From a virus (lineage: Duplodnaviria > Caudoviricetes), in the IMG/VR virus record IMGVR_UViG_3300021560_000002, positions 1-61,372 of that record: a DNA stretch of 61,372 nucleotides; one strand, written 5' to 3'. A model generated the notes under the pieces. It was not told where the DNA came from, searched no databases, and worked only from the letters and a program-made list of their open reading frames with translations. Shown here piece after piece: positions 1-33,128 of this stretch (position 1 is its first letter; each line of letters opens with the position of its first letter). The position numbers were made by a program, and so were the translations under genes.

Positions 1-123
1 CGCAGATCCACGACCAACAGGACTAGGAAGATACAGACCAGCGTCGCCGCCGTACGCAGCACCGCCGTCAGGATGTCGTTAAGCATGCGCAAGGGAGGAA
101 TCCGCGGCGACCGTAGCACAACC
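1..123. repeat. Terminal direct repeat, left copy (circular assembly overlap)
   Basis: Bases 1-123 match 61250-61372, and minus-strand genes run straight across the junction. Confidence 0.97.
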
Positions 124-2895
124 AGTTCGCGGCGGCAATGCCAATTCGTGCATCTCGGACCAATTCCTCCCCGCCGACGCTTCGACGTCAATGTAGAGCC
201 CCTCCGGCGCGATCGTGGGATGCTTGAGGACCGTAGACGGCGAGGTCAGCACGGGATAGACCTCGGCGATGTGCTGCTCGATATCCTCCTCCCGCAGATG
301 GAACATGAACGAGTCGTGGACGTTGTTGAACAAGCCATAGCGAGCGTCGAGCCCTGCTGCCGCCAGCTCCTTCATCTTCTCGCGGATGTGGCCGAAGGCG
401 ATGTTCGACAGCCAGAACGATATTGCTTCCTCAGATTGATCACCGTGGCCCCAGTCGCCCTTGCGACCATTCCAGCGGAAGACCTCATAGAAGCGCCGGA
501 TGTGCCCGAACTGCGTTCGCAGCATCATCTTCTCGTGGGCCTCGCGCTGTACCTTGCGCTGCCACACAAAGACCTTCGGGAACAGTTCCTTCTCGATAAT
601 CGTCAGGAACTTCTGCGCTTCCTTCTGTCCCACGAAGTTCTCCATATAGCGCTCGTAGAGACCCTTGGCCTTGAGGCCGTTGCCGATGCCCAAGATGGCG
701 TGCTTGGCCTGATCGTCGCGGACGTGCTTCCACGCCGGATTCTTCTTGAGCCATTTGAACCTGGCGCGTAGTTCGTCGTCGGACTCGCGCAGGATCGACG
801 GCCCGTCCCACAACTTGAGAATGTGTCCCGTAACGAACGAGTGCATGTCGAGACGGGCAAGGCGGATGTAGTTCGGATCTTCGGCTAAGAAGCCCAGCGT
901 CAGTACGTGGCAGGACTTAAAATCCCACTCGGAGATGAGGTGGCCAGGCTTGGCCGCGACCATCTTCCGCATCGACTTTGCGAGCGCTGGCGTCGGCTTG
1001 AGCTTCGGGAAGTTCTGGATGTTCGGGTTGCGCGAGGAGGTCTGCCCGATCGCCGTGTCGAAGGTAAATGTCGTGTGTACACAGCCGTCGGGGCCAGGAC
1101 GAAAGCCCTCGACGTAGGTGCCGCGCATCTTCGTCAAGCCTCGGAACTCGACGACTTTGAGATAAAACTTGTCGCCGGTCTTGTGCGCCAGACGTGTCAG
1201 CTCCTTGGCGTTGGTCGTGTCGGCAGGCTCATCGGAATCGCCCTTACTGCGGTGTTTGTCCTTCGGCCTCGGATGCCCCTTGGCGTCCATATACTCGAGC
1301 AGCTGCTGCCACGAGTTCGGATTGAAATTATAGACGCGGCACCAGCGGGTCGTAGCGCGTGCTACGGGCTCACCAGTCACCGCGTCCGTATCCGCGATGG
1401 TGAAGGGGCGTCGCTCGTAATGGTAGCGTTCCCCGTCGTCGCCGGATTCCTTGAAGTCGTTCGACGGCAATCCCATGACGTCGTTGCCGTCCTTGTCGCA
1501 CCATTTCTTGATCTCGGGGGGAACGCCCTTATAGCCGTCCTTCGGATGCACGCGGCCGAACCCCGCAGGCACCGCCGCCGCCAGTTCCGCGCCGACCGCC
1601 TGCTGCGCCCGGTCGAACTCGACGTCGAGCGCAACCCGCGCGACGTCGTCGATGGGCATCCCCCGGTCCTCCATCGCCGCGAGCGCCGGGCGGACGTTAT
1701 AGACCTGGCCGATGTACCCGCGCGTCTCGTCGCCCCAGAGGCCGTCCCGCCGCAGCGTCGCCTCGAGCATCCGGTACAGCCGCAGCGTCGCGTCGGCATC
1801 GCAGCAGCCGTAGAACTCAATATCCGTCGCCGCCAAATGTTTCCACGGGAACGGGAACGACGTGAACGACGCGGCGAACTGCAGATGCGCCGGGAGATCA
1901 GGCTGCCAGTGGTGGAACATCGCTAGGGTGTCGTGGATGACGCCCCGCACCTCGACTCCGTTGGCCCGGAGCACTTTGTTGTCGAACAGCCAGACGTTGT
2001 GTCCGCACTTGACGTTGGGCGTCGCCAGTATCTCTGCAATCAGTCCCCGAAACTCTCCGTCCCAAGGAACAGCAATCGCTTCCCCAAGTTCCGTAGAGAA
2101 TTGGACAAGTCTAATACCTGTGTCGACAAAGCCTTCTCGCGCGTCCTCATCGAGGGAAGCTGACTCAGAAGTTTCAATGTCGTAGCTAACCACAATTCCC
2201 GGTGTGCTTCGTACTCGATGTAGGTACGCTCGAACTTCTCCCACGCTGGGCCGGATGGCATAGTCTAGTCCTTTCGTCGTGAAGTTGTCGGCGTCGACGT
2301 CCCACAGGTACGCCGTATCGGTACCCTTGGCGACGTTCACCGCGCGCTGCAGAATCCTCGCGAACACGCCGTGATGCGACGCTTTCCCACGACGCAGGAA
2401 GGCGGGGTGGAAGTTCGGGATGACCGGGACTCCGCCCGGCCCTGGCAGCACATAGCCCACGAGGTGGGAGACTCCCTGTGCCTCCCCCGCCATCCCGGTC
2501 AGCACACGTGTCGCGACGCCGCCTAGCGCGACGATGCACCGGGGCCTGCGCTCGGCGATGACGGCGTCGAGGTTCGGCCGGCAGTGCGATAGCGCGGCGT
2601 ATTCCCACGGCGCTTTCTCCAGCCAATTGTTCCGGGGGCGGCAGCGCAGGACGTTGGTAACGCTGAACTGTTGACGGTCGTAGCCCATGCGACGCAGAAT
2701 GCGTTCTAATACTCCACCAGCGGGCGCCGATGGCCTAAAGGGTAGTCCCTCGCGCTGTTCGTGTTCGCCGCTTGCCTCGCCCACTAAGAGAACGCCGAGC
2801 GACCCAGTCCCCTCGACGGCGGAGAAGTCCGTCCCGTGGGAATAGCAGGCGCAGCCGACGCAGCCGTCCGGCTTCCTGCGTCCCCCAACGCTCAC
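79..2895 (-). CDS. polA: Family A DNA polymerase with N-terminal family-4 uracil-DNA glycosylase domain and 3'-5' exonuclease
   Basis: UDG: CxxC, VGEASG, TNVLRCRP, HPAF. Exo: YDIET, HNVWLFD, YGCCD. Pol: SSRNPNIQNFP, DFKSCH (motif A), AKHAILGIGNG (B), VHDSF (C). Start moved from 2913 to GTG 2895 (GTGA overlap with upstream ORF, GAGG upstream). Confidence 0.93.
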   Translation of the reverse strand: MSVGGRRKPDGCVGCACYSHGTDFSAVEGTGSLGVLLVGEASGEHEQREGLPFRPSAPAGGVLERILRRMGYDRQQFSVTNVLRCRPRNNWLEKAPWEYAALSHCRPNLDAVIAERRPRCIVALGGVATRVLTGMAGEAQGVSHLVGYVLPGPGGVPVIPNFHPAFLRRGKASHHGVFARILQRAVNVAKGTDTAYLWDVDADNFTTKGLDYAIRPSVGEVRAYLHRVRSTPGIVVSYDIETSESASLDEDAREGFVDTGIRLVQFSTELGEAIAVPWDGEFRGLIAEILATPNVKCGHNVWLFDNKVLRANGVEVRGVIHDTLAMFHHWQPDLPAHLQFAASFTSFPFPWKHLAATDIEFYGCCDADATLRLYRMLEATLRRDGLWGDETRGYIGQVYNVRPALAAMEDRGMPIDDVARVALDVEFDRAQQAVGAELAAAVPAGFGRVHPKDGYKGVPPEIKKWCDKDGNDVMGLPSNDFKESGDDGERYHYERRPFTIADTDAVTGEPVARATTRWCRVYNFNPNSWQQLLEYMDAKGHPRPKDKHRSKGDSDEPADTTNAKELTRLAHKTGDKFYLKVVEFRGLTKMRGTYVEGFRPGPDGCVHTTFTFDTAIGQTSSRNPNIQNFPKLKPTPALAKSMRKMVAAKPGHLISEWDFKSCHVLTLGFLAEDPNYIRLARLDMHSFVTGHILKLWDGPSILRESDDELRARFKWLKKNPAWKHVRDDQAKHAILGIGNGLKAKGLYERYMENFVGQKEAQKFLTIIEKELFPKVFVWQRKVQREAHEKMMLRTQFGHIRRFYEVFRWNGRKGDWGHGDQSEEAISFWLSNIAFGHIREKMKELAAAGLDARYGLFNNVHDSFMFHLREEDIEQHIAEVYPVLTSPSTVLKHPTIAPEGLYIDVEASAGRNWSEMHELALPPRTGCATVAADSSLAHA

Positions 2896-3008
2896 GACCT
2901 CAGCCACTCCCACGCGCGAATGACGGCGTAGACAATCGCCGCCCAGAGGCCGAAGCTAAACACCGCCGATGCTGTCCACGCTGCCGTGCGCATCCGCGCT
3001 GGTGTCAC
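2892..3008 (-). CDS. Small membrane protein (38 aa)
   Basis: MTPARMRTAAWTASAVFSFGLWAAIVYAVIRAWEWLRS; GTGA overlaps with both neighbours; below the ORF-track cutoff. Confidence 0.65.
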   Translation of the reverse strand: MTPARMRTAAWTASAVFSFGLWAAIVYAVIRAWEWLRS

Positions 3009-3778: not shown

Positions 3779-5170
3779 TCACAACCACCCCCTCACCCTC
3801 TCGTCAATCTTGCACTGCTGAACGAACCGCTCGCGGCTCCCGACGACCCGCAGCCCACCCGCCGTCCGGCATCGGCTAAGTGCGACGTACGCCATCGCAG
3901 GCTTGCCGAAAAACTGGTCGCGGACGTCGATCTGACACCTGTCGAGCGTCAGCCCCTGGCTCTTATGCACCGTCGAGGCATACGCCAGTCGCAGCGGAAA
4001 ATACTCCACCTGCCCGATGACCCACCCGCGCTTCTTCCCGACCTTGTGAATCTCCGGGCAGTACGACGGGTCGAGGGCTCCCACCTTCCGCCCATTCCAT
4101 CCCGCCGGCTCCTCGGCCGTCGTAACGTTCCTGACGATCCTGCCGATCCTGACCGTCTGGCCCGTCCTGACCAGCTTGACCGAGAAGTAAGGGATGCCGT
4201 AGTCGTCCGAGTATCCAGTGACGTGTCCGCAGTCTCCGTTGACGTAGGTGAACTCCGGCGTGTCGTTCGACAGAACCATCACGTACGCGCCGATTTTGAA
4301 GTCTGTCCTCGGCGGTATGCCCCACTCATGCGTCGTGCGGGATTCTCCCCACTCACGCCTCTGCTGCCCCCATCGGCGGGACGTCACGGTGATCCGTTCG
4401 CCTGCGACCTTCGCCAGTCCCAGCTCGTTGTACCGCGAGACCATGTCGTTCTTCGGGAGGATGGTCGTGCCGTCGAACGACGTATCGAGCGCCTGATGCC
4501 AGACCACTCCCGCCGACGTCAACGCCTCCGCGGCCTCGACGCCCCTGCCCGCTCGCGCGAAGTTCAACCCCTCTAGGAACACGCCGCCGTCCTGCCGCCA
4601 CACGCGGTCCAGCCGGACCGAGTTCGCCGCAAACCTCGGCCAGCAGTCGGCGTCGAAGGCGAACCGCGCCTTGATCGGGGGAAGCTGACAGAAGTCGCCG
4701 ACGGTCAGAATGCCCAGCGGCCGTTCGACGTCTCTGTATCGATTGACCTCCTCGGTCGCGCGATAGAGGATGTCGAGCTGCACGGCGTCCAGCATCGACT
4801 TCTCGTCGACGATGAGCCAGCGCCGTTCGACCGCGATATCATGCAGCCGCCGGACGATCTGACCCGACAGATAGGCGTCCTGCATCGACGCCGTATCGAA
4901 GTATCCAAGCGCCGAGTTTAGCGTCACGGCGCCAAGGTTCACCGCCGCGATCCCCGTAGTCGCCGTGAGCATTCCGTAGTCCTCGTTCTCACGGCAGCGG
5001 CGCAGCACCTCGAACGTCTTTCCCGTACCCGCCGCGCCTGAGAGATCCGCGCACGGGACGCCTGCTTCCACCTGCTCTACCTCTGTCGCCGCCTCCACAG
5101 CGGCAGCGTCCAAGCAGGCATCGGCAGGCGTCTCGTTCACGTTCGTTTCTGGCGTGGGAAAGTCTTCCAT
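3779..5170 (-). CDS. Pif1-family (SF1B) 5'-3' DNA helicase
   Basis: GAAGTGKT, TGIAA, VDEKSM, GDFCQLPP, FPLRLAYASTVHKSQGLTLD, YVALSRCR. Confidence 0.92.
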   Translation of the reverse strand: MEDFPTPETNVNETPADACLDAAAVEAATEVEQVEAGVPCADLSGAAGTGKTFEVLRRCRENEDYGMLTATTGIAAVNLGAVTLNSALGYFDTASMQDAYLSGQIVRRLHDIAVERRWLIVDEKSMLDAVQLDILYRATEEVNRYRDVERPLGILTVGDFCQLPPIKARFAFDADCWPRFAANSVRLDRVWRQDGGVFLEGLNFARAGRGVEAAEALTSAGVVWHQALDTSFDGTTILPKNDMVSRYNELGLAKVAGERITVTSRRWGQQRREWGESRTTHEWGIPPRTDFKIGAYVMVLSNDTPEFTYVNGDCGHVTGYSDDYGIPYFSVKLVRTGQTVRIGRIVRNVTTAEEPAGWNGRKVGALDPSYCPEIHKVGKKRGWVIGQVEYFPLRLAYASTVHKSQGLTLDRCQIDVRDQFFGKPAMAYVALSRCRTAGGLRVVGSRERFVQQCKIDERVRGWL

Positions 5171-5976: not shown

Positions 5977-7044
5977 TTATGACTTCGTTGACGCTACTGC
6001 GCCCTCGGCTGCTGCCCCCGTTGAAACCTTCGCCGCCGCTGCCGGCCCTCGTAGCCGCGCCGCCGCCTGTTCCCGCCATCCCGCGAGCGTGTCCGCCTGC
6101 TCCGACGCCAACTTATCGAGTTCCCGCAGGTAATCGGCGAATGAGTCCGTCCCGTCGACCTTGGGCTCGAAGTATCCGCCGGGGAATCGCTTTACGAGCG
6201 CGCTGACTTTCTCCGGCGTTACGCGCGGCTTGCAGGGGAATGGAATCGATGTCACCGGGTCGAGATGCGGCTTGAAGTAGTAGCGGACGGTAACGTCGCG
6301 GACGATAGAGTCGATCGTCCCTCCGCCGTCTGGCGACGGAACCTTCTCTGTGCGGGTCATCGTGTAATCTTGTCCGTGGAGGAGGTCCCCGACCCAACTT
6401 CCGCACTGTGCTGTCGCCTTCTTGCCCGCGATCGACGGGCCAAACGTCGTGACCCGGTCGTCGTCCTCGGCCTTCGACTCCAGCGCCGTGTACAACACAT
6501 ACCGGCACGGCAGCGCGTTAAAGTTCATCACCAAGCCGTAGAGGAAGTTCTGCACGAAACCGTAGTCGCCGCGGGTCGTCGAGCGGAAGTGCCCGGTCTC
6601 GAGCTTCCCGTTGACGTTGACCGGCTGGCTGAACCCGCCGAGCTTATTGCGGTCTTCGCCGCCGACGCTGATCCCCGAATCCGGCAGGAACCGCAGCACG
6701 ACGTTGCCTATCGACGTCCATCCCTCGACCGCCACCGCGCCAACTTCCGCCCAGTTGATCGGCACGAGCTGGATGCGTTCCGGGTCGGTTTCCTCGACGT
6801 CCTTTGGCCAATAGCCGCGGGAGATGTTGCGCAGGATCGGCAGAGGGATCGTCGCCATCTCCACGCGGTACGGCCGAATCATCCCCGCGCGGACTTCCGG
6901 CTCGCAGGGCTCCCAGCCGCCGCCGTCGGTCGACAGCAGCAGCGTCGACTTCCCCGTAGTCTCCGCGATGTAGTGCGAGAACCACTTGACCTGCGATGTT
7001 TTGAGACAACCCGTCGGGGCGTAAAGACATCCACTACGCGCCAT
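5977..7044 (-). CDS. Sak4-like / AAA_24 P-loop ATPase (ssDNA annealing recombinase)
   Basis: YAPTGCLKTS Walker A, LLSTDGG, VAVEGWTS, DYG, YTALE, GPSIAGK; clustered with exonuclease and SSB candidate. Confidence 0.75.
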   Translation of the reverse strand: MARSGCLYAPTGCLKTSQVKWFSHYIAETTGKSTLLLSTDGGGWEPCEPEVRAGMIRPYRVEMATIPLPILRNISRGYWPKDVEETDPERIQLVPINWAEVGAVAVEGWTSIGNVVLRFLPDSGISVGGEDRNKLGGFSQPVNVNGKLETGHFRSTTRGDYGFVQNFLYGLVMNFNALPCRYVLYTALESKAEDDDRVTTFGPSIAGKKATAQCGSWVGDLLHGQDYTMTRTEKVPSPDGGGTIDSIVRDVTVRYYFKPHLDPVTSIPFPCKPRVTPEKVSALVKRFPGGYFEPKVDGTDSFADYLRELDKLASEQADTLAGWREQAAARLRGPAAAAKVSTGAAAEGAVASTKS

Positions 7045-7210
7045 TTGTTCCCCCCTCCACGCGATCAACGGCCTTCATCGCCTCGACGCGCAGAAACTCC
7101 CCGACCTTGACTCCCTGCTTCGCCGCGACCCGCTGAATTCGGGTAAGTGCGCGCCGGGACAGACGGACACTGACAATCTCGTCCTTCTTATTATCGTTTA
7201 CGTTTGTCAT
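7034..7210 (-). CDS. Ribbon-helix-helix DNA-binding protein
   Basis: IVSVRLS-helix-AAKQGVKVGEFLR pattern (CopG/Arc-like). Confidence 0.6.
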   Translation of the reverse strand: MTNVNDNKKDEIVSVRLSRRALTRIQRVAAKQGVKVGEFLRVEAMKAVDRVEGGTNGA

Positions 7211-7275: not shown

Positions 7276-7704
7276 CTATTTTTGCGCGGTATTCGGCGTT
7301 GCTGGTGGCTGGCTCGCTAGAGCCCCCGATACCTCGACGCGCTCGACGTCCACGTCGTCGATCGCAGTGCTCACCTCCAGTAGCACCGCCGCGCCACCGT
7401 CAGCCCAGAACCGATGCAGCGTCCCCGGAGTGATCCGCAGTGGCGACGAGAGCCCGGCGATCATCCTGACCCGCGTCGGCACGTCCCCCTCCGCCTCCTG
7501 CGTCTCGACGACCGCAGCGCCGTCGACGATGACGAACGTCTCGTCCTTCCGCGCGTGACGATGCAGCGACGACTGCCAGCCCTCACGCAGGAACAGGAAC
7601 TTGGCCCCATACTCCGGCGTGTCCACGAGCCACCGCTCGACGCCCCAAGCCTTCGCTACGATCTCGGAGCCGGGCAACGATGCCAACTGTTCAGCGATCG
7701 TCAT
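7276..7704 (-). CDS. Cupin-domain protein (sugar isomerase-like)
   Basis: KAWGVE, SSLHRHARKDETF, PGTLHRF, LEVST cupin motifs. Confidence 0.85.
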   Translation of the reverse strand: MTIAEQLASLPGSEIVAKAWGVERWLVDTPEYGAKFLFLREGWQSSLHRHARKDETFVIVDGAAVVETQEAEGDVPTRVRMIAGLSSPLRITPGTLHRFWADGGAAVLLEVSTAIDDVDVERVEVSGALASQPPATPNTAQK

Positions 7705-8613: not shown

Positions 8614-10287
8614 CTATACTACTTTATCGCCTGAGTCAATAACATAAAATTCCTGCGGATGGTTTGCCTCTCTAATCTTATAAAGACCTGAGCCTATAGG
8701 GTCTTTGCGTATATCGTCGCTGCCATAACACAGATTTTGATAATTGCAGGGAACCGGCCAGACGCACGCGCGCCGGGTCTTCGGGAACCAGCGATTGAGC
8801 GCCGATCTTCGCGCGCCGTCGTCTCCAGCCTCTTCCGCCGCCCGTACCGCCGCGACGCCTCCGGCCACCGCCCGCTCCTGCGCCTCGGTCTCCTCAGCCC
8901 AGTCGAGCGACTCGTCCTCTTGGCGATAGACGATGACCGGAGGCGGCAGCGCGGCGTCGAGCGGATGAACGTCGGTCGAGCCGGTAGACTGCGCCGGACC
9001 CGTCCATCGCGCCGCAATGTCGCAGCCCAGGATGAAGGCATCGGACGATCGCTCCTCCGCTGTCGGCCCCTGGACCTCCGAAGCGTCCAGCATGTCGATC
9101 CACGCCTTGACCGACATCCGCTCCCAGACCTGCGCCGGAGGCCAGTTCTTCGCGTAGAGCCGCGACGTCGTCCCGTCGTCCTTGCGGTACCCGAACGACC
9201 AGTTCCACTGCTCGTCGCCCGCCGCCATCCCTGCGTTCAGGTACGCGCGCACCAGATGACTCTTCTGCACGTAGGGCGCAAAGCCGAAGCGGTCGGTCAA
9301 ACGATCGTCCTTGTCCCGCGAGCCTTTGAGGAGATAGTCGTAGCGGATAGCGAGGATGCGGGGCGGCGACGCCAGGACGCGGAGGAATGCCATTGTTCTA
9401 GCATCCGAGGATGTCCCGCCGACCTCGGCAGCCAGTTCAGAATCGGTTAGCTCGTCTTCCTTCAATTGCTGCGCTATCTCCCACCACTCCGCCAGCCGCC
9501 GCTCCACCTCCGGCGCCTCGCTCAGCCCCTGCATATCATGCTCGGCGTCCTTGAGCCTCCGCGTGTCGAGCACCGACGCCGTCTTGAACGACTGCAGCAC
9601 GAGCTGCCCCGACGTCCTGTCCAGCAGCAGCGCGTCGGGCCGGGACATGAACCAGAGTTCCTCGACGTCCCAAGCGAAGGCGACGTCTCCCAGCCGCCAC
9701 TCTCCCTCTCGTTCCACCTCCAGCACCTCGTACTGCTCGAGCAGCGGACGCAATCGCCGCCTGGCCCACGCCCGGACCAGCCCCTCGACCAGCGCTGACT
9801 GCTCGGCGAAGAGGAAGTCGTCGTAGGCAGACGTAGCAGATGTCGGCGTCGCCGTCGATACTGTCGAAGCGTCCAGCATCATCGGCGTCCCGAACGGCGC
9901 AGCCTCGGCGGCATTGGCTTCTACCAGTCCCGCGTCCGTGGCATCCTCCCGCTCCGCCGCAATCGCGTTCCGGTACTGCGCGAAGTCGTCGAGGGCGGCG
10001 ATGACCGCAGCGTCCTCCATCGCGGGCGTCGGAGCCACCTCTGGCAACGCCATCGCGTCTCGCAGCAACGACGCTAGCCCCTCATGCACCGCGCCGCCGA
10101 CTGCCAGCGGCAGAGACTTCCTCCGCGGCACGATCCCCCGGCCCTCTGGCCCTGCGTGATACTCCCACCAGCGCCGGCGGCGGCACGCCTGCGCCGTCTC
10201 GACCCGGCTGCGGTCAACGTAGATCCGTTTCGTCGTCATCGTCGTCTCCGTTCGCTCCCCCTCCGTCAGCTTCACCGTGTCGCTCAT
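8614..10287 (-). CDS. PD-(D/E)XK (AddB/Cas4-like) exonuclease with 1+3 Cys Fe-S signature
   Basis: SRVETAQACRRRRW, GGAVH, EVERE, RPDALL, SFKT, C-terminal ACVWPVPCNYQNLC; start at ATGA overlap 10287. Confidence 0.8.
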   Translation of the reverse strand: MSDTVKLTEGERTETTMTTKRIYVDRSRVETAQACRRRRWWEYHAGPEGRGIVPRRKSLPLAVGGAVHEGLASLLRDAMALPEVAPTPAMEDAAVIAALDDFAQYRNAIAAEREDATDAGLVEANAAEAAPFGTPMMLDASTVSTATPTSATSAYDDFLFAEQSALVEGLVRAWARRRLRPLLEQYEVLEVEREGEWRLGDVAFAWDVEELWFMSRPDALLLDRTSGQLVLQSFKTASVLDTRRLKDAEHDMQGLSEAPEVERRLAEWWEIAQQLKEDELTDSELAAEVGGTSSDARTMAFLRVLASPPRILAIRYDYLLKGSRDKDDRLTDRFGFAPYVQKSHLVRAYLNAGMAAGDEQWNWSFGYRKDDGTTSRLYAKNWPPAQVWERMSVKAWIDMLDASEVQGPTAEERSSDAFILGCDIAARWTGPAQSTGSTDVHPLDAALPPPVIVYRQEDESLDWAEETEAQERAVAGGVAAVRAAEEAGDDGARRSALNRWFPKTRRACVWPVPCNYQNLCYGSDDIRKDPIGSGLYKIREANHPQEFYVIDSGDKVV

Positions 10288-10667
10288 GGCCGCCCTCCCA
10301 ACGCTAGGCAGTGCCAACGCTTGTCCTCCGACATCAGCAGGAAGCGCGTCGGATCGGCGCAGGTGCGGTGATGGACGCGCTTTCCCGGAAACTTCCAACT
10401 CAAATCTCGGTCCGCAGCTTCTGCCGTTGCTCCACTACCGCAGCATTCGTATCCAGAGTGCTCTACCGTGTCCCATTCCTTCGGCTTCACGTCGAACGGG
10501 GCTGCCGTGCCAGTACCGAGCATTGGATACACAGCCCCGTTCTTGTCAGCGCAGATCAGCGCTCCGTCCAGAACTGAACAGGACAGCGGCTTCATCGTAC
10601 TGGACGTTTCGTTCTGCCCCATCGCCCCCGGCACCGCTAGCAGCAACAGCGCAATCGCGTATCTCAT
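10284..10667 (-). CDS. Secreted Cys-rich protein
   Basis: Signal peptide MRYAIALLLLAVPGAMG|Q; six Cys in the mature part. Confidence 0.7.
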   Translation of the reverse strand: MRYAIALLLLAVPGAMGQNETSSTMKPLSCSVLDGALICADKNGAVYPMLGTGTAAPFDVKPKEWDTVEHSGYECCGSGATAEAADRDLSWKFPGKRVHHRTCADPTRFLLMSEDKRWHCLALGGRP

Positions 10668-13374: not shown

Positions 13375-13602
13375 CTACGACTGCTGATTCTCCGGTTGAC
13401 TCGCCATCGCTTTCTTGGCGAAGAAACATGCCTCTTCAAGCTTCGTGCGGAAGATTGCAAACTCCCGCGACTTCGGGTTCTCAACGCTGATTCCAGATAG
13501 CGCAGCGACGCTGTAAAGCAACTGGTTGAAATCTCCCGCTATCGCCACCGCTTTCTGCTTCCCCTGCTCGTTCAACATATGCACCTCAAACGCCGCATCC
13601 AT
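13375..13602 (-). CDS. Acb2/Tad1-like helical hairpin protein (candidate anti-defence nucleotide sponge)
   Basis: SREFAIFRTKLEEACFFAKKAMA resembles the RE..la.TKLEEA..wa hairpin signature; GGAGA SD; 75 aa. Confidence 0.6.
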   Translation of the reverse strand: MDAAFEVHMLNEQGKQKAVAIAGDFNQLLYSVAALSGISVENPKSREFAIFRTKLEEACFFAKKAMASQPENQQS

Positions 13603-13684
13603 CGTTATCTCCTTTTCCCCGAGCACCCATGTAGAAAGCCGCCCACTCGTTCCCGTTCTCCCCGCTCCGTGGGTCGCCGGGGGA

Positions 13685-13981
13685 TTACTTAGCCTCTCCG
13701 TCGGTAATCCAACCATGCCAGTGCCCCGACGCGCTGGCGTCCACTGATGGCTGTACGGTCAAGTTCTCGAACGTTCCTGAGATTGACCACGAGGATCCTG
13801 CGTTGCACGGAACTACTTTCATATTCCAATCCGGCCCAAACTCCTTTTCGTACAGGTCAAACTGCTCGTGGTCAGAGATGACCGCGTTCTTGCACGTTAG
13901 CCAATCCTTGCGACAATGAGGACACAGAAACACAAACATATTCGGGTGAATCCATCGCGGCTCAAGTTCTGTCAGTCGCAT
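13685..13981 (-). CDS. DUF6527-like protein
   Basis: FLCPHC...W.ISG..ENLTVQPSV......HWHGWITDG. Confidence 0.7.
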   Translation of the reverse strand: MRLTELEPRWIHPNMFVFLCPHCRKDWLTCKNAVISDHEQFDLYEKEFGPDWNMKVVPCNAGSSWSISGTFENLTVQPSVDASASGHWHGWITDGEAK

Positions 13982-16368: not shown

Positions 16369-16480
16369 CCGATCCGCTGGGTAATGTCTGGCGCATGAGC
16401 TGCGGAGGAGACGGCCTGCAGTCGCCTCCTCCCGATTTTCTGTGTGTCGGAACTCCCACACTCATGCAAAGGACATTTCG

Positions 16481-17428
16481 ATGACCGACTCCGGCTTGGC
16501 CCCCGCAGTCCAGCCGTCTCCTCTCCGTTCCCCTTACCTGATCGACGCTATCCTCCACGAACACGAAGTCCATATAATCTCCGGGCCGTCCGGCGCGGGC
16601 AAAACCGTACTTGCCCTGCAGATCGCCAGTGACTTCCTCGAGGGACGCGAAGTCTTCGGGCACGCTGTATCCACTGTGCCTCTGTGCTACATCGCCTGCG
16701 AGCGCTCGAAAGCGTCGCTCAAACGCACGATGAGTCAGCTTGACATTCCCTGCTCGACGATACCTCACGATTCCCTGATCCATCCTCTCCGGCGCGACGA
16801 AAGCCGCACGCTCGACGACGCCTTCGCGCTTGCCCGGCGGGTCTGCCCATCCTGCAAGCTACTGTTCCTAGACGGACTTGCCTCTCTGTGCCCAGGCCGC
16901 ATTACCGACTACCGCGAACTCTCCCATTTTCTTATTGGCCTTTCCAAGCGCTGTAAGCATGAGCAAATTACCGTGGTCGGCATCGTCTATTCGTCGAAGG
17001 TACGCGACGGCTCAGGGTACATCGCGCCGCGCGACCGTATTGCCGGCTCCGCCGCATGGTCCACGCTTACCGATACGAAGATCCTCATTGAGCCTCTCAA
17101 GCCGTCCAATCCCGCTGACCCCAATCGCGTCGTTTCGCTGCTACCGACCTCCCATGCTGCCGAGGTATTCGCCTATCAATTCGTCGGCGGCCGCCTGCTA
17201 CCGACCTCCGAGGCCAACTGCCCAGCGCAAGCTGACCTTGATCGCTGGCTCGCTGGCCTGCCCGAGTCGCTGCAGGTCTGCACGCAGGACATCGTTGAAG
17301 CTGGTTCATCCGCTGGGCTCTCCCGTACCACCATCTACCGCTGGATCGATGATCAAGTCTCACTCGGGACGATGCTACGAGTCTCCCGCGGATGGTATCG
17401 AAAAGCGCCTTCGGGCGTCGTGCAATAG
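16481..17428 (+). CDS. AAA_25 / RepA-like (SF4) helicase-type ATPase with C-terminal winged helix
   Basis: SGPSGAGKT, YIACE, LLFLDG, IAGSAAW, GLSRTTIYRW; AAGGA SD before ATG 16481. Confidence 0.8.
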   Translation: MTDSGLAPAVQPSPLRSPYLIDAILHEHEVHIISGPSGAGKTVLALQIASDFLEGREVFGHAVSTVPLCYIACERSKASLKRTMSQLDIPCSTIPHDSLIHPLRRDESRTLDDAFALARRVCPSCKLLFLDGLASLCPGRITDYRELSHFLIGLSKRCKHEQITVVGIVYSSKVRDGSGYIAPRDRIAGSAAWSTLTDTKILIEPLKPSNPADPNRVVSLLPTSHAAEVFAYQFVGGRLLPTSEANCPAQADLDRWLAGLPESLQVCTQDIVEAGSSAGLSRTTIYRWIDDQVSLGTMLRVSRGWYRKAPSGVVQ

Positions 17429-22968: not shown

Positions 22969-23777
22969 TGTCCGCCGCCGTCACCGTCGAAACCCTTCGC
23001 GACCGGGCCTACGCCGCTCTCGGCGTCACCCGCGAGCAGGTCTGGGCCGTGCCGTGCGTGACCCCGCAGATCCGGCAGCAGATGGCCGAGCTGCGCCGCG
23101 CCGACCGCACTGCCTCCGACGGACGCCGTACGCCCTCCGAGCCCATCTACTACGTTAATTGTTCCGACGATCCCGAAGCCCGGCGCTTCCGGGAAGCATG
23201 GTACACGCTGCCAAAGTCGCACCGAAAGATCGTGCCGCTCGAGGCCTACTGCGTCGCCGCCGGCATCTCGCCGATCCGGCTGCTCTCGATCATCGCGGCG
23301 TCGATCGTCCGGCTGAACGCCTCGGCGTCGGCCGTGCTCGCCGCCTCAGCTCATCCGCGCGTCGTGCGCAAGACGATTGAGATGGCCATGACCGACTACG
23401 GCGAAGCCGACCGCGCAACGCTCCACAAAGCCGTGGGCTTCCTGCCGACGCCCAAGGGCACGCAGATTTCCATAAACGCCACGGCGAACGCGCAGGCTCA
23501 GGCCGCAGCGGCTGCTGCTGCCATCCCCGCGCCGCCGCCGGAGGCTACTATCCGCAGGCTCGCCGAGCGGCTGAACGCCGCGCGCGGACTCCCCGCCGCG
23601 CAGCCGTCGGCCCTCTCCGCCGTCGACGCCGCATCCGCGCTTCCCTCCCCTGCCGCCGAAGTCATCCAGATGCCGACGCCGACCTACGTCTCCCGGCCCG
23701 ACGACTCGGGGTGGGACGACGCCGACGCTGACGCCGAGTCCGACTCCGCCGACGGCTGCTCCGACGCCGATGTATAG
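22968..23777 (+). CDS. Putative terminase small subunit
   Basis: Directly upstream of and overlapping TerL; helical; ..GFLPTPKG.QISIN segment. The call is positional. Confidence 0.5.
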   Translation: MSAAVTVETLRDRAYAALGVTREQVWAVPCVTPQIRQQMAELRRADRTASDGRRTPSEPIYYVNCSDDPEARRFREAWYTLPKSHRKIVPLEAYCVAAGISPIRLLSIIAASIVRLNASASAVLAASAHPRVVRKTIEMAMTDYGEADRATLHKAVGFLPTPKGTQISINATANAQAQAAAAAAAIPAPPPEATIRRLAERLNAARGLPAAQPSALSAVDAASALPSPAAEVIQMPTPTYVSRPDDSGWDDADADAESDSADGCSDADV

Positions 23778-25989
23778 TCGCTCAAAAGTCTCCGAACGCA
23801 TCGCCATCGCCGAAGCTGAGTTTGGCTTCTCCCTCGAACCGCACACTGTCGCCGAGGTGGACGCCTTCGACGCGCATCTAGTCGCCAGCGGGATGTACGA
23901 ATTCGACGACTCTGGCCGTCCATCCGCCGTCGTCCGCCTCTCTGACCTCGAGCGCGAGTGGATTCAGAACGAGCAGGCGCTGGTGCTGTGCGACGCCGAC
24001 TATTTCCTGTCCCATTATGCCTATATCAAGGACGAGCAGAACGTCATTCGCAGGTTCCAGTTCCGCACGCCGCAGCGGCTGCTCTATGAGATTATCGCTG
24101 GGCTGGAGGAGCGCGACGCCGCGATCGAAGTCATGATTTTGAAGGCGCGGCAGCTCGGCATGTCCACGCTGGTCGAGCTGCTCATCGCCCACCGCATCAT
24201 CTTCGGCTACGGCGTCAACGCCATCATCGGCTCGGCCGACCAAACCAAGACGGCGCTGATGGCCAACATGCTGTTCCTGTGCTACGACTACCTTCCGGTG
24301 TGGCTGCGTCCGCAGTGGACCCGGCGCGTCGAGTCCGACCGCGGGATGCTGGTCTTCGGCGCGTCCTCGTCCGGCGTCTCGTTCCAACACGGCGCGCAGG
24401 CTTCCGGAATCGCTCGCGGCACGACGCCCACGGTCTATCACCTGTCCGAGTGCGCGAGTTTCACCGATCCTGTCAATCAGATCGAAGCGTCGCTGTTTCG
24501 CGCCGTCCATGCGTCGCCAAACGTCTTCGGCATCCTCGAATCGACCGGCGAAGGCGACAAGGGTTGGTGGCCGGACACCTGGCGTCACGCTAAATCCAAC
24601 TGGCATCTGAACCGCGCACGCCTGTGCCCGCTATTCCTCCCCTGGTTCTGCGGCACCGACATCTACCCAACGCCGACGTGGATTGGCCAACGCCCGGTTC
24701 CAGCCGACTGGCGTCCGAACCGCGACACCCGCGAGCACGTCGCCAAGGCGGAACTCTACGTCCGCTCGTCTCCGCTGCTGTCACGTCACCTCGGCTCGGC
24801 GTGGCGGATGCCCCAGGCGCAGCAATGGTTCTGGGAAGTCGAGCACGAACAGGCCAAGGCGAAGGGTATCGAGTCTGTCTTCCTGCAGGAGATGGCGGGC
24901 GACGACGAAGAAGCGCTGCAGCGTTCGGTCGAGTCCGTCTTCGGGCACGAGACCATCGCCGAGATCTCCGCTACGCGCAACCGCGACTACGCCGTCTATG
25001 GACTCTCCGGACAGTCCATCGAAGACGACCACGAGCCGCCGCCTGACGACATCGACTACAACGCCGAGCGCATCCCGGTGCGCTACCAGTCGAAGAAGGC
25101 AGGCGCGGCCCCGTATCTCTGGGAGCTCATACCGCTGACCTTTTCGACGCCGCTGCGCGAGAACAACCCAGACGACGCCATAGGCAAGCTCATCGTCTTC
25201 CGGCCTCCGGCTCCCGGAGTCTCCTACTCGATCGGTGTTGACACCGGCGGCGGAAAGGGCGAGGACTCCACCGTCGTCTCCGTTTGGTCCATCGGCGCGC
25301 GCGGCCTCCCCGACATCCAAGCCGCCGAGTTCGCCTCTCCCTACGTCAATCACGTCGAGGCGTTCTCGTTTGTCTTCGCCATCGCCGCCTACTACGGCCA
25401 GTTCATGCGCGAGGGGATGACGCCTGAGTACCGCTGGCAGATGCCGTACCTGACCGTCGAGCAGGTTGAAGCCGTGGGAGACGTCTGTCAGCTCCAATGC
25501 ATTCGCATGGGCTATCCCGTGCGCAGCGTCCATGTCTTCACGCGGCTCGACTCTTCTCCCGCGCGCATCGCCCGGCAGAAGAAGACGGCGACCAAGCTCG
25601 GCTGGTATACCTACGGCTGGTCGCGGCCCATCCTGACCACCACCTTCGTCAACTCCGCCAAGAACAACTGGATCAAGATCAACTCGCCGTGGCTGGTCGA
25701 GGAGATGCGCCACTTCGAGGTGCATTCGACGGCGACGGGCAAGGAAAAGCTGGAGCACGAGGAAGGCGAGCACGACGACCGCATCTTCGCCGCCGCGATG
25801 GCGACGACGGCCCCCCACCTCACCGAGGACATGTCCGAGCGGTCGAAGAAGCGGCCGACAGAGGCCGCCGGACTCCCCCTGCTCGACCTTGCGCCGTACC
25901 GCGGGGGCGTCGTTTCGGCCGCCGACATCCGCCGCACCGCAAAATCCGCTAGCGAGTCGTGGGAAAGTCTGGTATACGGAGGCAGATGA
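23770..25989 (+). CDS. terL: Terminase large subunit
   Basis: ILKARQLGMST Walker A, HLSECA Walker B, LESTG, IGVDTGGG..EDST and HDDRIFA nuclease motifs. Confidence 0.95.
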   Translation: MYSRSKVSERIAIAEAEFGFSLEPHTVAEVDAFDAHLVASGMYEFDDSGRPSAVVRLSDLEREWIQNEQALVLCDADYFLSHYAYIKDEQNVIRRFQFRTPQRLLYEIIAGLEERDAAIEVMILKARQLGMSTLVELLIAHRIIFGYGVNAIIGSADQTKTALMANMLFLCYDYLPVWLRPQWTRRVESDRGMLVFGASSSGVSFQHGAQASGIARGTTPTVYHLSECASFTDPVNQIEASLFRAVHASPNVFGILESTGEGDKGWWPDTWRHAKSNWHLNRARLCPLFLPWFCGTDIYPTPTWIGQRPVPADWRPNRDTREHVAKAELYVRSSPLLSRHLGSAWRMPQAQQWFWEVEHEQAKAKGIESVFLQEMAGDDEEALQRSVESVFGHETIAEISATRNRDYAVYGLSGQSIEDDHEPPPDDIDYNAERIPVRYQSKKAGAAPYLWELIPLTFSTPLRENNPDDAIGKLIVFRPPAPGVSYSIGVDTGGGKGEDSTVVSVWSIGARGLPDIQAAEFASPYVNHVEAFSFVFAIAAYYGQFMREGMTPEYRWQMPYLTVEQVEAVGDVCQLQCIRMGYPVRSVHVFTRLDSSPARIARQKKTATKLGWYTYGWSRPILTTTFVNSAKNNWIKINSPWLVEEMRHFEVHSTATGKEKLEHEEGEHDDRIFAAAMATTAPHLTEDMSERSKKRPTEAAGLPLLDLAPYRGGVVSAADIRRTAKSASESWESLVYGGR

Positions 25990-31982: not shown

Positions 31983-33128
31983 ATGGCAGATCCTACATTT
32001 GATCAACTTAGTGCGACCACGCTGGCAGAGCTGAAAGACGACGTCCTCTACGACGAATTCTTCGTCGACACCCCTTGGCTGCGGAAACTCCGCGCCTCGG
32101 GCGCCCTCGACGAGTTCATGGGCGGCCTGTTCATGCAGACGCCGTTCCAGTACAACCGCGTCAACGGCGGCGCGATCGCTCCTGGCTCCGACATTACCGT
32201 CGTGCAGGTGCAGATCCTCGCAGCGACGGCCTTCACGCCGAAGGAGTACGTCGAGCAGGTTCCGCTCAACCTGTTCCGCACCAACGTCATTCAAGGCGGC
32301 GGTCCGGCAGTCAAGGTGAAGGAAGTCGACGCCTACATGACCAACGCCGTGCAGGCGCTCAACACCGACATTGCCATCGACTTTTACCGCCACGGGCAGA
32401 ACATCTCCGGCTCCAATCGCGCGATCTACATCAACGGAATCTCCGAGGCGCTCAACGACGGCGTCAATCCTTCCTGGGACGGCAACGTCTTCACGACCTA
32501 CGGCGGCCAGACGCGCAACGGCGCGGTCGGCAACGTCCTGAACTCGATTCCGCTGTGGGTCGGCGACCAAGCGGGCAACACGGGGCAAATCACCTACAAG
32601 GCCGTCGTCGAAGGATACCTGAACGCCGTGCAGTCCCCGGACATCGGCCTCTGCAACAAAGCCCTCTATGCGTATCTGCTCGAGCGCCAAGAGCCCAAGC
32701 AGCGCGCGAATATGACTGAGCAGGACGTCACCATCGGCATGTCGGGCATCAAGCTGATGGACATGTATATATTCGTCGATAAGCTCGCGCCGTCGACCAA
32801 GTTCGGGCAGATTCTGCCGTCAGGACTCTCCCAGACGACCTCGATCAAGCCGGCGAACTTCACGACCCCGACGCTGACCTCGGCGCAGAACGCCATCTCG
32901 AACTTCCCGTCGGCGACGCTGTGCAAGCCGGGCGAGCCGCTGTTCCTGCTGCGCTCGCAGGGCTGGAAGCTCCGGCCCTCCGCCGACCCCGAGTACAACG
33001 GGAACTTCACGCCGCCGATCCGGTCGCAAACCAACCCGGACCTCGTCGTGACGTTCCTCAAGATGGCGCTCAACGCCTACACGACCGGGCCGCGCGACAA
33101 CACACAGTTCATCGGAGCGGGCTTCTAG
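31983..33128 (+). CDS. Major capsid protein
   Basis: 381 aa; LSATTL....D.LYD.FF...P start, NGISEA, YGGQTR; AAGGAG SD; strong codon bias. Confidence 0.88.
   Translation: MADPTFDQLSATTLAELKDDVLYDEFFVDTPWLRKLRASGALDEFMGGLFMQTPFQYNRVNGGAIAPGSDITVVQVQILAATAFTPKEYVEQVPLNLFRTNVIQGGGPAVKVKEVDAYMTNAVQALNTDIAIDFYRHGQNISGSNRAIYINGISEALNDGVNPSWDGNVFTTYGGQTRNGAVGNVLNSIPLWVGDQAGNTGQITYKAVVEGYLNAVQSPDIGLCNKALYAYLLERQEPKQRANMTEQDVTIGMSGIKLMDMYIFVDKLAPSTKFGQILPSGLSQTTSIKPANFTTPTLTSAQNAISNFPSATLCKPGEPLFLLRSQGWKLRPSADPEYNGNFTPPIRSQTNPDLVVTFLKMALNAYTTGPRDNTQFIGAGF

What the first reader, a model, noticed from the sequence alone, without database searches (positions are those of the whole stretch)
310..1044. PolA with a systematically rewired nascent-base-pair pocket (R668Q, E710H, F762L, Y766N, N845S, Q849S, E883S equivalents)
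Seen, aligned by eye to E. coli Pol I: TAIGQTSS vs TATGRLSS; DFKSCHVL vs DYSQIELR; AKHAILGIGNG vs AKAINFGLIYG; AISFWLSNIA vs AINAPMQGTA; VHDSF vs VHDEL. Catalytic D705, D882, K758, H734, H881 and all three Exo motifs are retained. Established: E710 is the steric gate against rNTPs, and R668/E710/Y766/N845/Q849 form the minor-groove-sensing fidelity network and are highly conserved. Inference: simultaneous change of the whole network with intact catalytic residues looks like a change of specificity rather than decay. Possibilities are rNTP use or priming, modified nucleotides, or lesion/abasic bypass coupled to the fused UDG.
Basis: partly seen in the sequence, partly recalled or inferred. Interest (0 to 1): 0.82.

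Follow-up and report, generated by a model that had tools for sequence, protein, structure and literature searches.

The report
Phage DNA polymerase with rewired pocket
The only DNA polymerase of this complete, uncultivated phage genome belongs to a large, apparently undescribed branch of family A polymerases that has replaced several active-site residues usually treated as near-universal, yet looks fully functional.

Summary
ORF 79-2913(-) encodes a 944-aa fusion of a family-4 UDG, a 3'-5' exonuclease and a PolA. HMMER and MAFFT alignments to Klenow, Taq, T7 and T5 give R668Q, E710H, F762L, Y766N, N845S, Q849S and E883S, with D705, H734, K758, H881, D882 and the Exo residues kept.

The changes are not private to this genome and are not decay.
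- Among 120 sequences at 52-68% identity, Q is 120/120, H 118/120 and L 120/120.
- Among 150 representatives of 50%-identity clusters, the R668 site is Q 129, S 5, never R. The E710 site is H 144 of 145.
- The clade is monophyletic. Related UDG-PolAs and N4 keep R, an acidic gate residue and Y.

The rewiring is layered. Q/H/L, N845A, an R841-site Glu and an Arg shifted to K-5 are clade-wide. Y766N and loss of Q849 are late changes in the window's subclade. F762L and E883S are common in other phage PolAs.

The gene lies in a conserved replication module, is the only polymerase found, and relatives carry inteins in these motifs.

I found no evidence for rNTP use, priming or modified bases. The best reading is a replicative proofreading polymerase with a co-evolved alternative pocket: a new PolA variant.

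The parts
79..2913 (-). Whole gene: 944-aa UDG / 3'-5' exonuclease / family A DNA polymerase fusion (P0001), GTG start
   Evidence: Pfam PF03167 at 67.9 bits (cut-off 24.3) and PF00476 at 84.1 bits (cut-off 34.3). phrog_17 DNA polymerase, 2e-47. The family alignment supports the long N-terminus with Cys18/Cys21. The database gene call of 869 aa (P0002) would lose the first 75 residues (inferred from its length and 92% coverage), which hold GEASG.
2326..2880 (-). Family-4 UDG domain (residues 12-196) with Fe-S cysteines C18, C21, C91, C111, motif GEASG (45-49), N87 and H169-P170
   Evidence: PDB sequence hits to family-4 UDGs, 4.5e-18. Residue conservation. Coordinates checked.
1654..2241 (-). 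3'-5' exonuclease domain (about residues 225-420): Exo I D245/E247, Exo II D311, Exo III Y368/D372
   Evidence: All five residues are 120/120. The AF2 model matches the Klenow, Bst and Pol theta exo+pol folds, TM by target 0.70-0.79.
154..1332 (-). Polymerase domain (residues 528-920)
   Evidence: Pfam stretch 528-920. Six-frame PF00476 match at 154-1332, 83 bits.
1009..1056 (-). TGR-motif equivalent TAIGQTSSRNPNIQNF. Q624 (1042-1044) replaces R668. R628 sits four residues later.
   Evidence: Q is 120/120. In 150 representatives: Q 129, S 5, gaps 16, never R.
898..930 (-). Motif A EWDFKSCHVLT. Catalytic D664 = D705. H669 (907-909) replaces the steric-gate E710.
   Evidence: H is 118/120. H is 144 of 145 aligned representatives.
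673..723 (-). Motif B / O helix VRDDQAKHAILGIGNGL. K737 = K758, L741 = F762, N745 = Y766. R732 is at K-5 and D733 sits at the R754 position.
   Evidence: MAFFT with E. coli, T7 and T5. AF2 helix 726-744. L 120/120; N 102 and F 18 of 120. In representatives F 100, N 24, L 12, Y 2.
382..432 (-). Motif 6 / helix Q EEAISFWLSNIAFGHIR. E828 at the R841 position, S832 = N845, S836 = Q849, N837 = G850.
   Evidence: Frequencies.
301..327 (-). Motif C NNVHDSFMF. H866/D867 = H881/D882. S868 (310-312) replaces E883.
   Evidence: S 101, A 16, N 2, D 1 of 120.
3779..5170 (-). Dda-like / Pif1-like SF1 helicase just upstream of the polymerase in the same transcription direction
   Evidence: Pfam AAA_30 and PIF1. 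phrog_325 Dda-like helicase, 2e-52. Syntenic in relatives.
5977..7068 (-). Sak4-like ATPase, part of the conserved replication/recombination module
   Evidence: phrog_124, 1.1e-05. Homologue found in 24 of 37 related loci.
8614..10398 (-). PD-(D/E)XK (RecB/Cas4-like) nuclease of the module
   Evidence: Atlas feature score 0.97 and structure TM 0.66/0.81 to PDDEXK_1 clusters. Weak phrog_1218 exonuclease hit.

Best explanation
The gene encodes the phage's replicative, proofreading DNA-dependent DNA polymerase. It has a family-4 UDG domain that looks active, a DEDDy exonuclease and a PolA core. It belongs to a large, deep, uncultivated clade in which the nascent-base-pair pocket was rebuilt with a different but equally constrained set of residues.

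Shown:
- Canonical fold.
- Two catalytic Asp, the O-helix Lys and both His retained.
- Substituted positions fixed across the clade.
- Coupled substitutions within the pocket.
- A conserved replication module, and no other polymerase found.

Inferred:
- The enzyme still uses ordinary dNTPs on DNA.
- The imidazole of H669 takes over the steric-gate floor under C2' of the incoming sugar, much as aromatic gate residues do in other polymerase families.
- Minor-groove and triphosphate contacts lost with R668, N845, Q849 and R754 are supplied by clade-specific conserved residues. Candidates are Q624, R/K628, N837, R732 and, in the crown group, K666.
- The net effect is on kinetics and fidelity, not on substrate class.
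- The UDG domain probably checks template DNA for uracil, as shown for SP15-like UDG-PolAs.
For: - Pfam, PHROG and PDB hits.
- AF2 model with mean pLDDT 83.5 and pTM 0.79. Most of the pol core has block pLDDT above 85. Foldseek top hits are Klenow, Bst and Pol theta, TM by target 0.70-0.79.
- D664, H691, K737, H866, D867 and the five Exo residues are 120/120.
- Q624 is 120/120, H669 118/120, L741 120/120 and N837 119/120. The same pattern holds in 150 cluster representatives at 36-69% identity.
- The clade is large: 380 representatives at E<=1e-30.
- Covariation: the set C668/H738/N745 against Y668/P738/F745, the latter in 16 sequences.
- Inteins sit in the TGQ motif (about residues 626-630) and in motif B (about 740) in 6 of 120 homologues. 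Two IMG/VR loci (L036, L039) also have a motif B intein.
- Synteny of nuclease, Sak4-like ATPase, a 253-aa protein, helicase and polymerase. N4 has comparable gene content.
- Only one PF00476 match in the complete DTR genome, and 0 of 5 genomes with a family B polymerase.
- In Tt72 PolA the E710-equivalent Ala mutant keeps 35% activity and the natural Ser at E883 is tolerated (PMC9324360, passages read).
- 106 of 113 full-length representatives carry the UDG domain, with E46, N87, H169 and the Cys ligands mostly kept.
- UDG template scanning is shown for YerA41 and phiLo enzymes (PMC13697223, abstract and sections read).
Against: - No biochemistry exists for any member.
- Mutating R668, Q849, E710 or N845 in Klenow impairs catalysis or fidelity (PMC10520511, passages read), so an 'ordinary' phenotype is not guaranteed.
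- Which residues compensate is inference. The tools return no model coordinates, so no contact could be checked.
- An acidic or amide residue at the R754 position and Glu at the R841 position are unexplained by this reading.
- No primase was recognised in 5 complete genomes. This leaves a gap in the replication scheme that the reading does not fill.
Confidence: 0.6

Rival explanations
1. Relaxed minor-groove checking as an adaptation to the fused UDG. The UDG makes abasic sites in the template, and the polymerase lacks the R668/N845/Q849 sensors and the motif B Tyr that fills the gap opposite an abasic site. It would therefore be tuned to bypass or handle AP sites and lesions itself.
For: - UDG motifs are conserved clade-wide.
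- SP15-like UDG-PolAs excise template dU and bypass the AP site with dA (PMC13697223, abstract).
- KlenTaq Tyr671 (the Y766 equivalent) occupies the missing base and guides purine insertion (PMC11273360, passage read). That residue is F, L or N here.
- 0 of 5 clade genomes carry an ATP-dependent ligase or a PolX palm, which accompany SP15-like enzymes. The PolX control was weak: over the cut-off in 0 control genomes.
Against: - Four related UDG-PolAs with intact UDG motifs (vir526, Mel-JY34, MW202489, MW202554) keep R, an acidic gate residue, Y and Q, so UDG fusion does not require the rewiring.
- A strictly conserved proofreading exonuclease argues for accurate synthesis.
- No assay exists.
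Confidence: 0.15
2. Changed substrate class. The pocket accommodates rNTPs or another sugar, a nucleotide modified on the minor-groove side, or lets the enzyme prime de novo.
For: - Loss of the Glu steric gate, of the motif B Tyr and of three conserved Arg contacts.
- No primase-type domain in 5 complete clade genomes: Prim-Pol, Toprim_2, Toprim_3, Zn_ribbon_DnaG and D5_N are all 0 of 5. No blastp match to N4 gp43 primase.
Against: - His is as bulky as Glu, so it is likely still a gate (inference).
- A DNA-specific UDG and a DEDDy proofreader are retained.
- ThyA-like, PurZ-like and TGT/DpdA-like genes are 0 of 5, and Pfam scans of 40 window ORFs found no nucleotide-metabolism gene.
- The deviations do not move towards T7 RNAP (recalled motifs; T7 RNAP was not aligned to the clade).
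- A missing primase is equally explained by host primase use, by recombination-dependent initiation (Sak4-like ATPase, nuclease and helicase are present) or by an unrecognised primase among the many unannotated ORFs.
Confidence: 0.12
3. The polymerase active site is degenerate, and the protein survives for its UDG, exonuclease or scaffold role.
For: Residues usually called invariant are missing.
Against: - The replacement residues are themselves fixed over hundreds of diverged sequences, together with both catalytic Asp, Lys and His.
- It is the only polymerase in a complete genome.
- Inteins sit in the motifs.
- The AF2 palm and fingers are modelled with high confidence.
Confidence: 0.03

Closest known systems
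Bacterial Pol I large fragment (Klenow, Bst, KlenTaq)
   Same: Exo+pol fold (Foldseek TM by target 0.70-0.79). Motif order TGR-A-B-6-C. D705, H734, K758, H881, D882 and the DEDDy exonuclease residues are kept.
   Different: About 17-19% identity. R668Q, E710H, F762L, Y766N, N845S, Q849S, E883S, R841-site Glu, Arg shifted to K-5. N-terminal UDG instead of a 5' nuclease.
N4-like UDG-PolA (cluster 17 of Czernecki et al. 2023, PMC10201439)
   Same: UDG-exo-pol architecture. The replication module also holds a helicase, an exonuclease and a Sak4-like protein.
   Different: N4 gp39 has the canonical SGRLSS, DFASLE and F/Y in motif B, and lacks the UDG motifs. The paper says N4-like UDGs lost their catalytic residues. 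Only 24.7% identity over 170 residues. N4 has a primase, and none is recognised here.
SP15-like and SPO1-like UDG-PolAs (Missoury et al. 2026, PMC13697223)
   Same: Fusion to a UDG with conserved catalytic motifs. This is the likely model for how UDG and polymerase cooperate.
   Different: Those enzymes are about 1300 aa with two inserts and a C-terminal domain. They come from phages with hypermodified thymine and co-occur with PolX and ligase. They pack the sugar against a motif B Phe, and E710 is cited as the gate. Here the protein is 944 aa. tblastn with residues 1-480 matched SP-15 only over the UDG part (27.9% over residues 19-178); the pol domain was not checked against SP-15. ThyA-like, PolX and ligase are 0 of 5.
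UDG-PolAs of about 40-44 kb phages (Microcystis phage Mel-JY34, vir526, MW202489, MW202554)
   Same: Nearest GenBank phage relatives of the UDG+exo part (22.7-28.8% identity). UDG motifs are intact in Mel-JY34, the only one printed.
   Different: All four keep Arg in TGR, Glu or Asp at the gate, Tyr at B4 and Gln in motif 6. They branch outside the Q/H clade.
DpoZ polymerases of 2-aminoadenine phages
   Same: Phe at motif B position 4, and Leu at position 3 in the phiVC8-like group (PMC10201439). These are the commonest states in this clade.
   Different: DpoZ keeps the other conserved positions according to that paper. PurZ-like genes are 0 of 5 here.
T5 and Thermus phage Tt72 PolA
   Same: Natural HDS motif C, that is Ser at E883 (PMC9324360).
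   Different: They keep TGR Arg, the gate Glu and the motif B Tyr (for T5).

Membership tests
Family A DNA polymerase (PF00476) | Profile match over the curated cut-off, and the PolA fold | tested here: met
   84.1 bits against a cut-off of 34.3. Foldseek top hits are Klenow, Bst and Pol theta.
Family A DNA polymerase (PF00476) | Catalytic Asp of motifs A and C, motif B Lys, motif C His | tested here: met
   D664, D867, K737 and H866 are 120/120.
Family A DNA polymerase (PF00476) | Arg of the TGR motif (R668) | tested here: not met
   Gln in 120/120. Never Arg in 134 aligned representatives.
Family A DNA polymerase (PF00476) | Glu steric gate (position A2, E710) | tested here: not met
   His in 118/120 and in 144/145.
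Family A DNA polymerase (PF00476) | Tyr at motif B position 4 (Y766) | tested here: not met
   N745 here. N 102 and F 18 of 120. F 100, N 24, L 12, Y 2, R 1 of 139 aligned representatives.
Family-4 uracil-DNA glycosylase | Profile match, four Fe-S cysteines, a GE(A/G)PG-type motif A and an HP(A/S) motif B (motif definitions recalled) | tested here: met
   PF03167 at 67.9 bits against 24.3. PDB family-4 UDG hits. C18, C21, C91, C111, E46, N87 and H169 are conserved. Motif A reads GEASG, with Ser in place of Pro. Activity was not assayed.
DEDDy 3'-5' proofreading exonuclease | Exo I D-x-E, Exo II D, Exo III Y-x3-D | tested here: met
   D245, E247, D311, Y368 and D372 are 120/120.
N4-like UDG-PolA (cluster 17) | UDG domain without catalytic residues, and close sequence similarity to N4 gp39 | tested here: not met
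   UDG motifs are kept here and absent in N4 gp39. blastp gives 24.7% over 170 residues.
SP15-like UDG-PolA | Insert 1, Insert 2 and a C-terminal domain (about 1300 aa), in phages with thymine-modification genes | tested here: not met
   944 aa. The SP-15 match was restricted to the UDG part in a search with residues 1-480 only. ThyA-like 0 of 5. The inserts were judged from length only; the paper's supplementary alignment was not available.
DpoZ | Co-occurrence with PurZ (2-aminoadenine pathway) | tested here: not met
   PF00709 is 0 of 5 complete clade genomes; the control hit 14 of 14.

The most novel reading that the evidence does not exclude
The Q/H clade has given up the family A minor-groove and sugar checkpoints: the TGR Arg, the Glu gate, the motif B Tyr, N845 and Q849. 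On this reading it did so because it polymerises something other than plain dNTPs on plain DNA. Candidates are ribonucleotide or other sugar-variant substrates, a nucleotide altered on the minor-groove side, or de novo chain starts that would replace the primase that could not be found in five complete genomes.
Probability: 0.12. Interest if true: 0.85.

Novelty: new variant of a known kind. Interest (0 to 1): 0.62.

Why it matters
Family A polymerases are among the best-studied enzymes. The TGR arginine, the glutamate steric gate and the O-helix tyrosine are treated as near-universal. They are marked as highly conserved positions in all 19 clusters of the 2023 reclassification (PMC10201439, passages read).

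A natural clade lacks all three yet is clearly under selection. It has at least 380 cluster representatives at 50% identity with E<=1e-30, mostly on complete phage genomes of about 55-65 kb. This amounts to a ready-made natural experiment on how sugar selection and minor-groove proofreading can be built differently.

It offers new enzyme scaffolds for altered fidelity, lesion bypass or unnatural substrates. It also shows that surveys keyed on canonical residues may miss a whole polymerase lineage.

Tried and rejected
Tried without result:
- No isolated phage in the GenBank phage collection is more than about 27% identical, so there was no characterised close relative to lean on.
- HMMER left motif B unaligned to Taq and Klenow. 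Motif B rests on MAFFT and the AF2 helix.
- The structure tools return no coordinates, so no contact in the pocket (for example H669-N745, or R628 reaching the primer terminus) could be checked.
- The 594-aa neighbour was tested as a possible primase. It had no PDB sequence hit, and the Atlas points to a PD-(D/E)XK nuclease.
- Bradyrhizobium elkanii phages (62.9 kb, 67% GC, Leu762 PolA; preprint 10.1101/2025.10.06.680108, passages read) were considered as possible cultured members. Their record was not in the collection, so this lead is untested.
- ARAGORN found no tRNA or tmRNA in the window.
- dN/dS was not attempted, because relatives with DNA are at most 67% identical in protein and synonymous sites would be saturated.

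Rejected:
- Decay of the active site (see rivals).
- RNAP-like drift. HDS in motif C is shared with T5, Tt72 and other phage DNA polymerases.
- Membership of the N4-like, SP15-like or DpoZ groups (see membership tests).

Literature: searches found no paper describing a PolA clade with Gln at the TGR Arg or His at the steric gate. Nasko et al. 2018 holds none of the terms 668, 710, 766 or uracil. Supplementary Fig. S2 of PMC10201439 (unclustered UDG-PolAs) and Fig. S1 of PMC13697223 could contain members of this clade.

Full report
**What is there.** The window is a complete IMG/VR virus record with direct terminal repeats. It is 61,372 bp, about 63% G+C, and CheckV puts it at 100% complete. 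The minus-strand ORF 79-2913 encodes a 944-aa protein, P0001. Pfam finds a UDG-superfamily domain at residues 38-178 (67.9 bits) and DNA_pol_A at residues 528-920 (84.1 bits). PHROGs gives phrog_17, DNA polymerase. PDB sequence searches hit family-4 UDGs at the N-terminus and Taq, Klenow and Bst in the polymerase part. The finding's coordinates, 310-1044, run from the codon of S868 to the codon of Q624.

**Checking the alignment.** A profile of 40 family members aligns to Taq and Klenow across the TGR motif and motif A. Here TAIGQLSSRNPNIQNFP lies against TATGRLSS.DPNLQNIP, and WDFKSCHVL against LDYSQIELR. It also aligns across motifs 6 and C, where NNVHDSL lies against LQVHDEL. HMMER left motif B unaligned. 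MAFFT with E. coli Pol I, T7 and T5 polymerases puts AKHAILGIGNG against AKAINFGLIYG. An AlphaFold2 model (mean pLDDT 83.5, pTM 0.79) has a helix at 726-744 that ends just before N745, as the O helix ends at Y766.

The resulting equivalences, using E. coli numbering checked:

| E. coli residue | This protein |
|---|---|
| R668 | Q624 |
| D705 | D664 (kept) |
| E710 | H669 |
| H734 | H691 (kept) |
| K758 | K737 (kept) |
| F762 | L741 |
| Y766 | N745 |
| N845 | S832 |
| Q849 | S836 |
| G850 | N837 |
| H881/D882 | H866/D867 (kept) |
| E883 | S868 |

Two further changes were not in the finding. The Arg that normally sits four residues before the motif B Lys (R754) is one residue further away (R732), with Asp (D733) in its place. 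The R841 position is Glu (E828). The model's best structural matches are Klenow, Bst and Pol theta, with TM by target 0.70-0.79.

**Private or clade-wide?** The word-index search found 347 relatives at E<=0.001. The best 120 are 52-66% identical, and nearly all carry UDG plus PolA. Twenty-five of the 120 come from contigs of 61-66 kb, and many of the rest from shorter fragments. I aligned 120 sequences, the query plus 119 homologues:
- Q624 is 120/120 and H669 is 118/120 (F in 2).
- L741 is 120/120.
- N745 is 102/120 (F in 18).
- S868 is 101/120 (A 16, N 2, D 1).
- N837 is 119/120.
- The catalytic and Exo residues are 120/120.

An exhaustive search with the pol domain (residues 472-944) against 1.84 billion cluster representatives found 4058 proteins at E<=0.001, 840 at E<=1e-10 and 380 at E<=1e-30. 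States in the best 150, which are 36-69% identical:

| Site | States in the 150 representatives |
|---|---|
| R668 | Q 129, S 5, gaps 16, never R |
| E710 | H 144, F 1, gaps 5 |
| F762 | L 120, H 13, other 9, gaps 8 |
| Y766 | F 100, N 24, L 12, Y 2, R 1, gaps 11 |
| N845 | A 119, S 13, other 3 |
| Q849 | A 86, S 27, Q 17, other 5 |
| E883 | S 76, A 39, E 9, D 8, other 3 |
| K-5 (one before R754) | R 141 of 143 |
| R754 | D 98, N 35, E 5, R 1, G 1 |

IMG/VR loci down to 31% identity show the same Q, H and L in 33 of 33 loci with a readable pol domain.

**Outgroups and order of events.** The nearest GenBank phage relatives of the UDG+exo part are vir526, Mel-JY34, MW202489 and MW202554, at 22.7-28.8% identity. 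All four keep Arg in TGR, Glu or Asp at the gate, Tyr at B4 and Gln in motif 6. So do E. coli, T7 and T5, and N4 gp39.

A FastTree of the pol domain used 51 rows: the query, every fourth homologue, 13 loci and 7 references, rooted on T7. It puts all Q/H sequences in one clade on a long stem. Basal lineages have F or L at B4 and some keep Q849. The window sits in a crown group with N at B4 and N at the G850 site. I did not print support values or test alternative topologies.

So the rewiring is layered.
- Old and clade-wide: R668Q, E710H, F762L, N845A/S, the Arg shift and the R841-site Glu.
- Late, in the window's subclade: Y766N and loss of Q849.
- Not special to this clade: F762L and E883S. 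Leu at B3 marks several PolA clusters (PMC10201439, passages). T5, MW202554 and Mel-JY34 have HDS. Tt72 PolA has Ser at the E883 site (PMC9324360, passages).

**Functional or decayed?** Several lines argue for function.
- The replacement residues are as conserved as the catalytic ones.
- Pocket positions covary. C668/H738/N745 occurs in 72+14 and more sequences, against Y668/P738/F745 in 16. These 16 largely form one subclade, so they count as few independent events.
- Inteins interrupt the TGQ motif (about residues 626 and 630) and motif B (about 740) in 6 of 120 homologues. Motif B inteins also occur in loci L036 and L039. From general knowledge, inteins typically sit in conserved sites of essential genes.
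- The gene closes a conserved module: PD-(D/E)XK nuclease, Sak4-like ATPase, a 253-aa protein, Dda-like helicase, then polymerase. N4's module has similar content.
- It is the only PF00476 match in the complete genome. No family B polymerase was found in 5 complete clade genomes.
- 106 of 113 representatives of at least 800 aa carry the UDG domain, mostly with E46, N87, H169 and the four cysteines.

**Is there evidence for a new specificity?** I found none.
- In five complete or near-complete clade genomes (the window and the records of L011, L016, L030 and L039), ThyA-like (PF00303), PurZ-like (PF00709) and TGT/DpdA (PF01702) genes are each 0 of 5. The named control genomes responded in 10 to 14 of 14.
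- Pfam scans of 40 window ORFs show no nucleotide-metabolism gene.
- PolX palm and ATP-dependent ligase, which accompany SP15-like UDG-PolAs (PMC13697223), are 0 of 5. The PolX control was weak.
- Five primase-type domains (Prim-Pol, Toprim_2, Toprim_3, Zn_ribbon_DnaG, D5_N) are also 0 of 5. N4's primase has no blastp match in the window.

The missing primase is the one observation that keeps the priming idea alive. Host primase use, recombination-dependent initiation or an unrecognised primase are simpler explanations.

**How it most likely works.**
- Shown: a canonical PolA fold, with two catalytic Asp, the O-helix Lys, both His, an intact DEDDy exonuclease and a UDG with its motifs.
- Established: R668, N845 and Q849 read the minor groove of the terminal base pair. 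E710 with F762 and Y766 forms the sugar gate. Mutating them lowers activity or fidelity in Klenow (PMC10520511, passages). In Tt72 PolA the gate Glu-to-Ala mutant still has 35% activity (PMC9324360).
- Inferred: H669 provides the steric floor under C2'. Q624 keeps a shorter hydrogen bond to the primer-terminus minor groove. Clade-specific conserved residues restore contacts and charge balance. Candidates are R/K628, N837 and R732, plus K666 in the crown group. The UDG scans template DNA as in YerA41 and phiLo polymerases (PMC13697223, abstract and sections 15-16 and 19 in part).

I put 0.6 on an ordinary-substrate replicative polymerase with altered kinetics or fidelity. I put 0.15 on a pocket tuned for AP-site or lesion handling, 0.12 on a changed substrate class or priming, and 0.03 on decay.

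**Comparison with what is known.** UDG-PolA fusions are known: N4-like with an inactive UDG, and SPO1-like and SP15-like with an active one (PMC10201439, PMC13697223). This protein fails the membership tests for N4-like, SP15-like and DpoZ, but works like a UDG-PolA. It is a family A polymerase by profile, fold and catalytic residues. It lacks three of the positions that the 2023 reclassification marks as highly conserved in all 19 clusters.

My literature searches found no description of a PolA lineage with Gln at the TGR Arg or His at the gate.

MAG hits suggest a soil setting. They come from Terracidiphilus and Acidobacteriota, and from Solirubrobacterales. This is a weak hint about hosts, not a host assignment.

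**Verdict.** It is a new variant of a known kind, and worth an enzymologist's time.

Noticed in passing
window 13375-13716 (-): A 113-aa ORF matches the Acb2/Tad1 hairpin domain (PF24729, E 4.8e-06, 27.1 bits against a cut-off of 27). It is a possible anti-CBASS/Thoeris nucleotide sponge.
   Followed up: no
whole window, and the records behind L011, L016, L030 and L039: No primase-type domain (Prim-Pol, Toprim_2, Toprim_3, Zn_ribbon_DnaG, D5_N) in 5 of 5 complete or near-complete clade genomes. The only primase/helicase-like hit is the AAA_25 ATPase at 16442-17428 (+), matched in its helicase part.
   Followed up: partly
P0030, P0034, P0086, P0089, P0092, P0094; L036 and L039: Inteins of about 270-320 aa sit inside the TGQ motif (about residues 626 and 630) and inside motif B (about residue 740) of clade polymerases.
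   Followed up: partly
window 79-2913 (-), residues about 760-765: 57 of 120 family members carry a roughly 32-aa insertion with two CxxC pairs (a zinc-ribbon-like element) in the fingers. The window's protein lacks it.
   Followed up: partly
window 2689-2913 (-): The database gene call for this protein (P0002, 869 aa) would start at Met76, judging from its length and 92% coverage. That would cut off the Fe-S cysteines C18/C21 and the GEASG motif. The family alignment supports the longer 944-aa ORF.
   Followed up: yes
L049 3040-3651 (+): A roughly 200-aa fragment matching only the exonuclease part (residues 189-399, 48% identity) lies inside a 2.5-Mb contig of an Acidobacteriota MAG. It may be a prophage remnant and a host hint.
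   Followed up: partly
L044 and L045 (Mel-JY34, MW202489): These outgroup UDG-PolAs have His at the F762 (B3) position (FVHGTNYG, FAHGTNYL). His also occurs there in 13 of 150 clade representatives.
   Followed up: no
window 7276-7704 (-) and 35250-36608 (+): A cupin-fold protein sits in the replication module (phrog_7851 'cysteine dioxygenase', 4.3e-15). A TPR protein with a weak glycosyltransferase-9 match (1e-05) sits among the structural genes. Both functions are unknown.
   Followed up: no
whole window: Most ORFs have no Pfam or PHROG match. Only the large terminase (23770-25989) and the major head protein (31983-33128) were recognised among the 20 plus-strand (20.9-59.9 kb) proteins scanned (10 of them by PHROGs). 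This is a very poorly charted phage lineage.
   Followed up: partly
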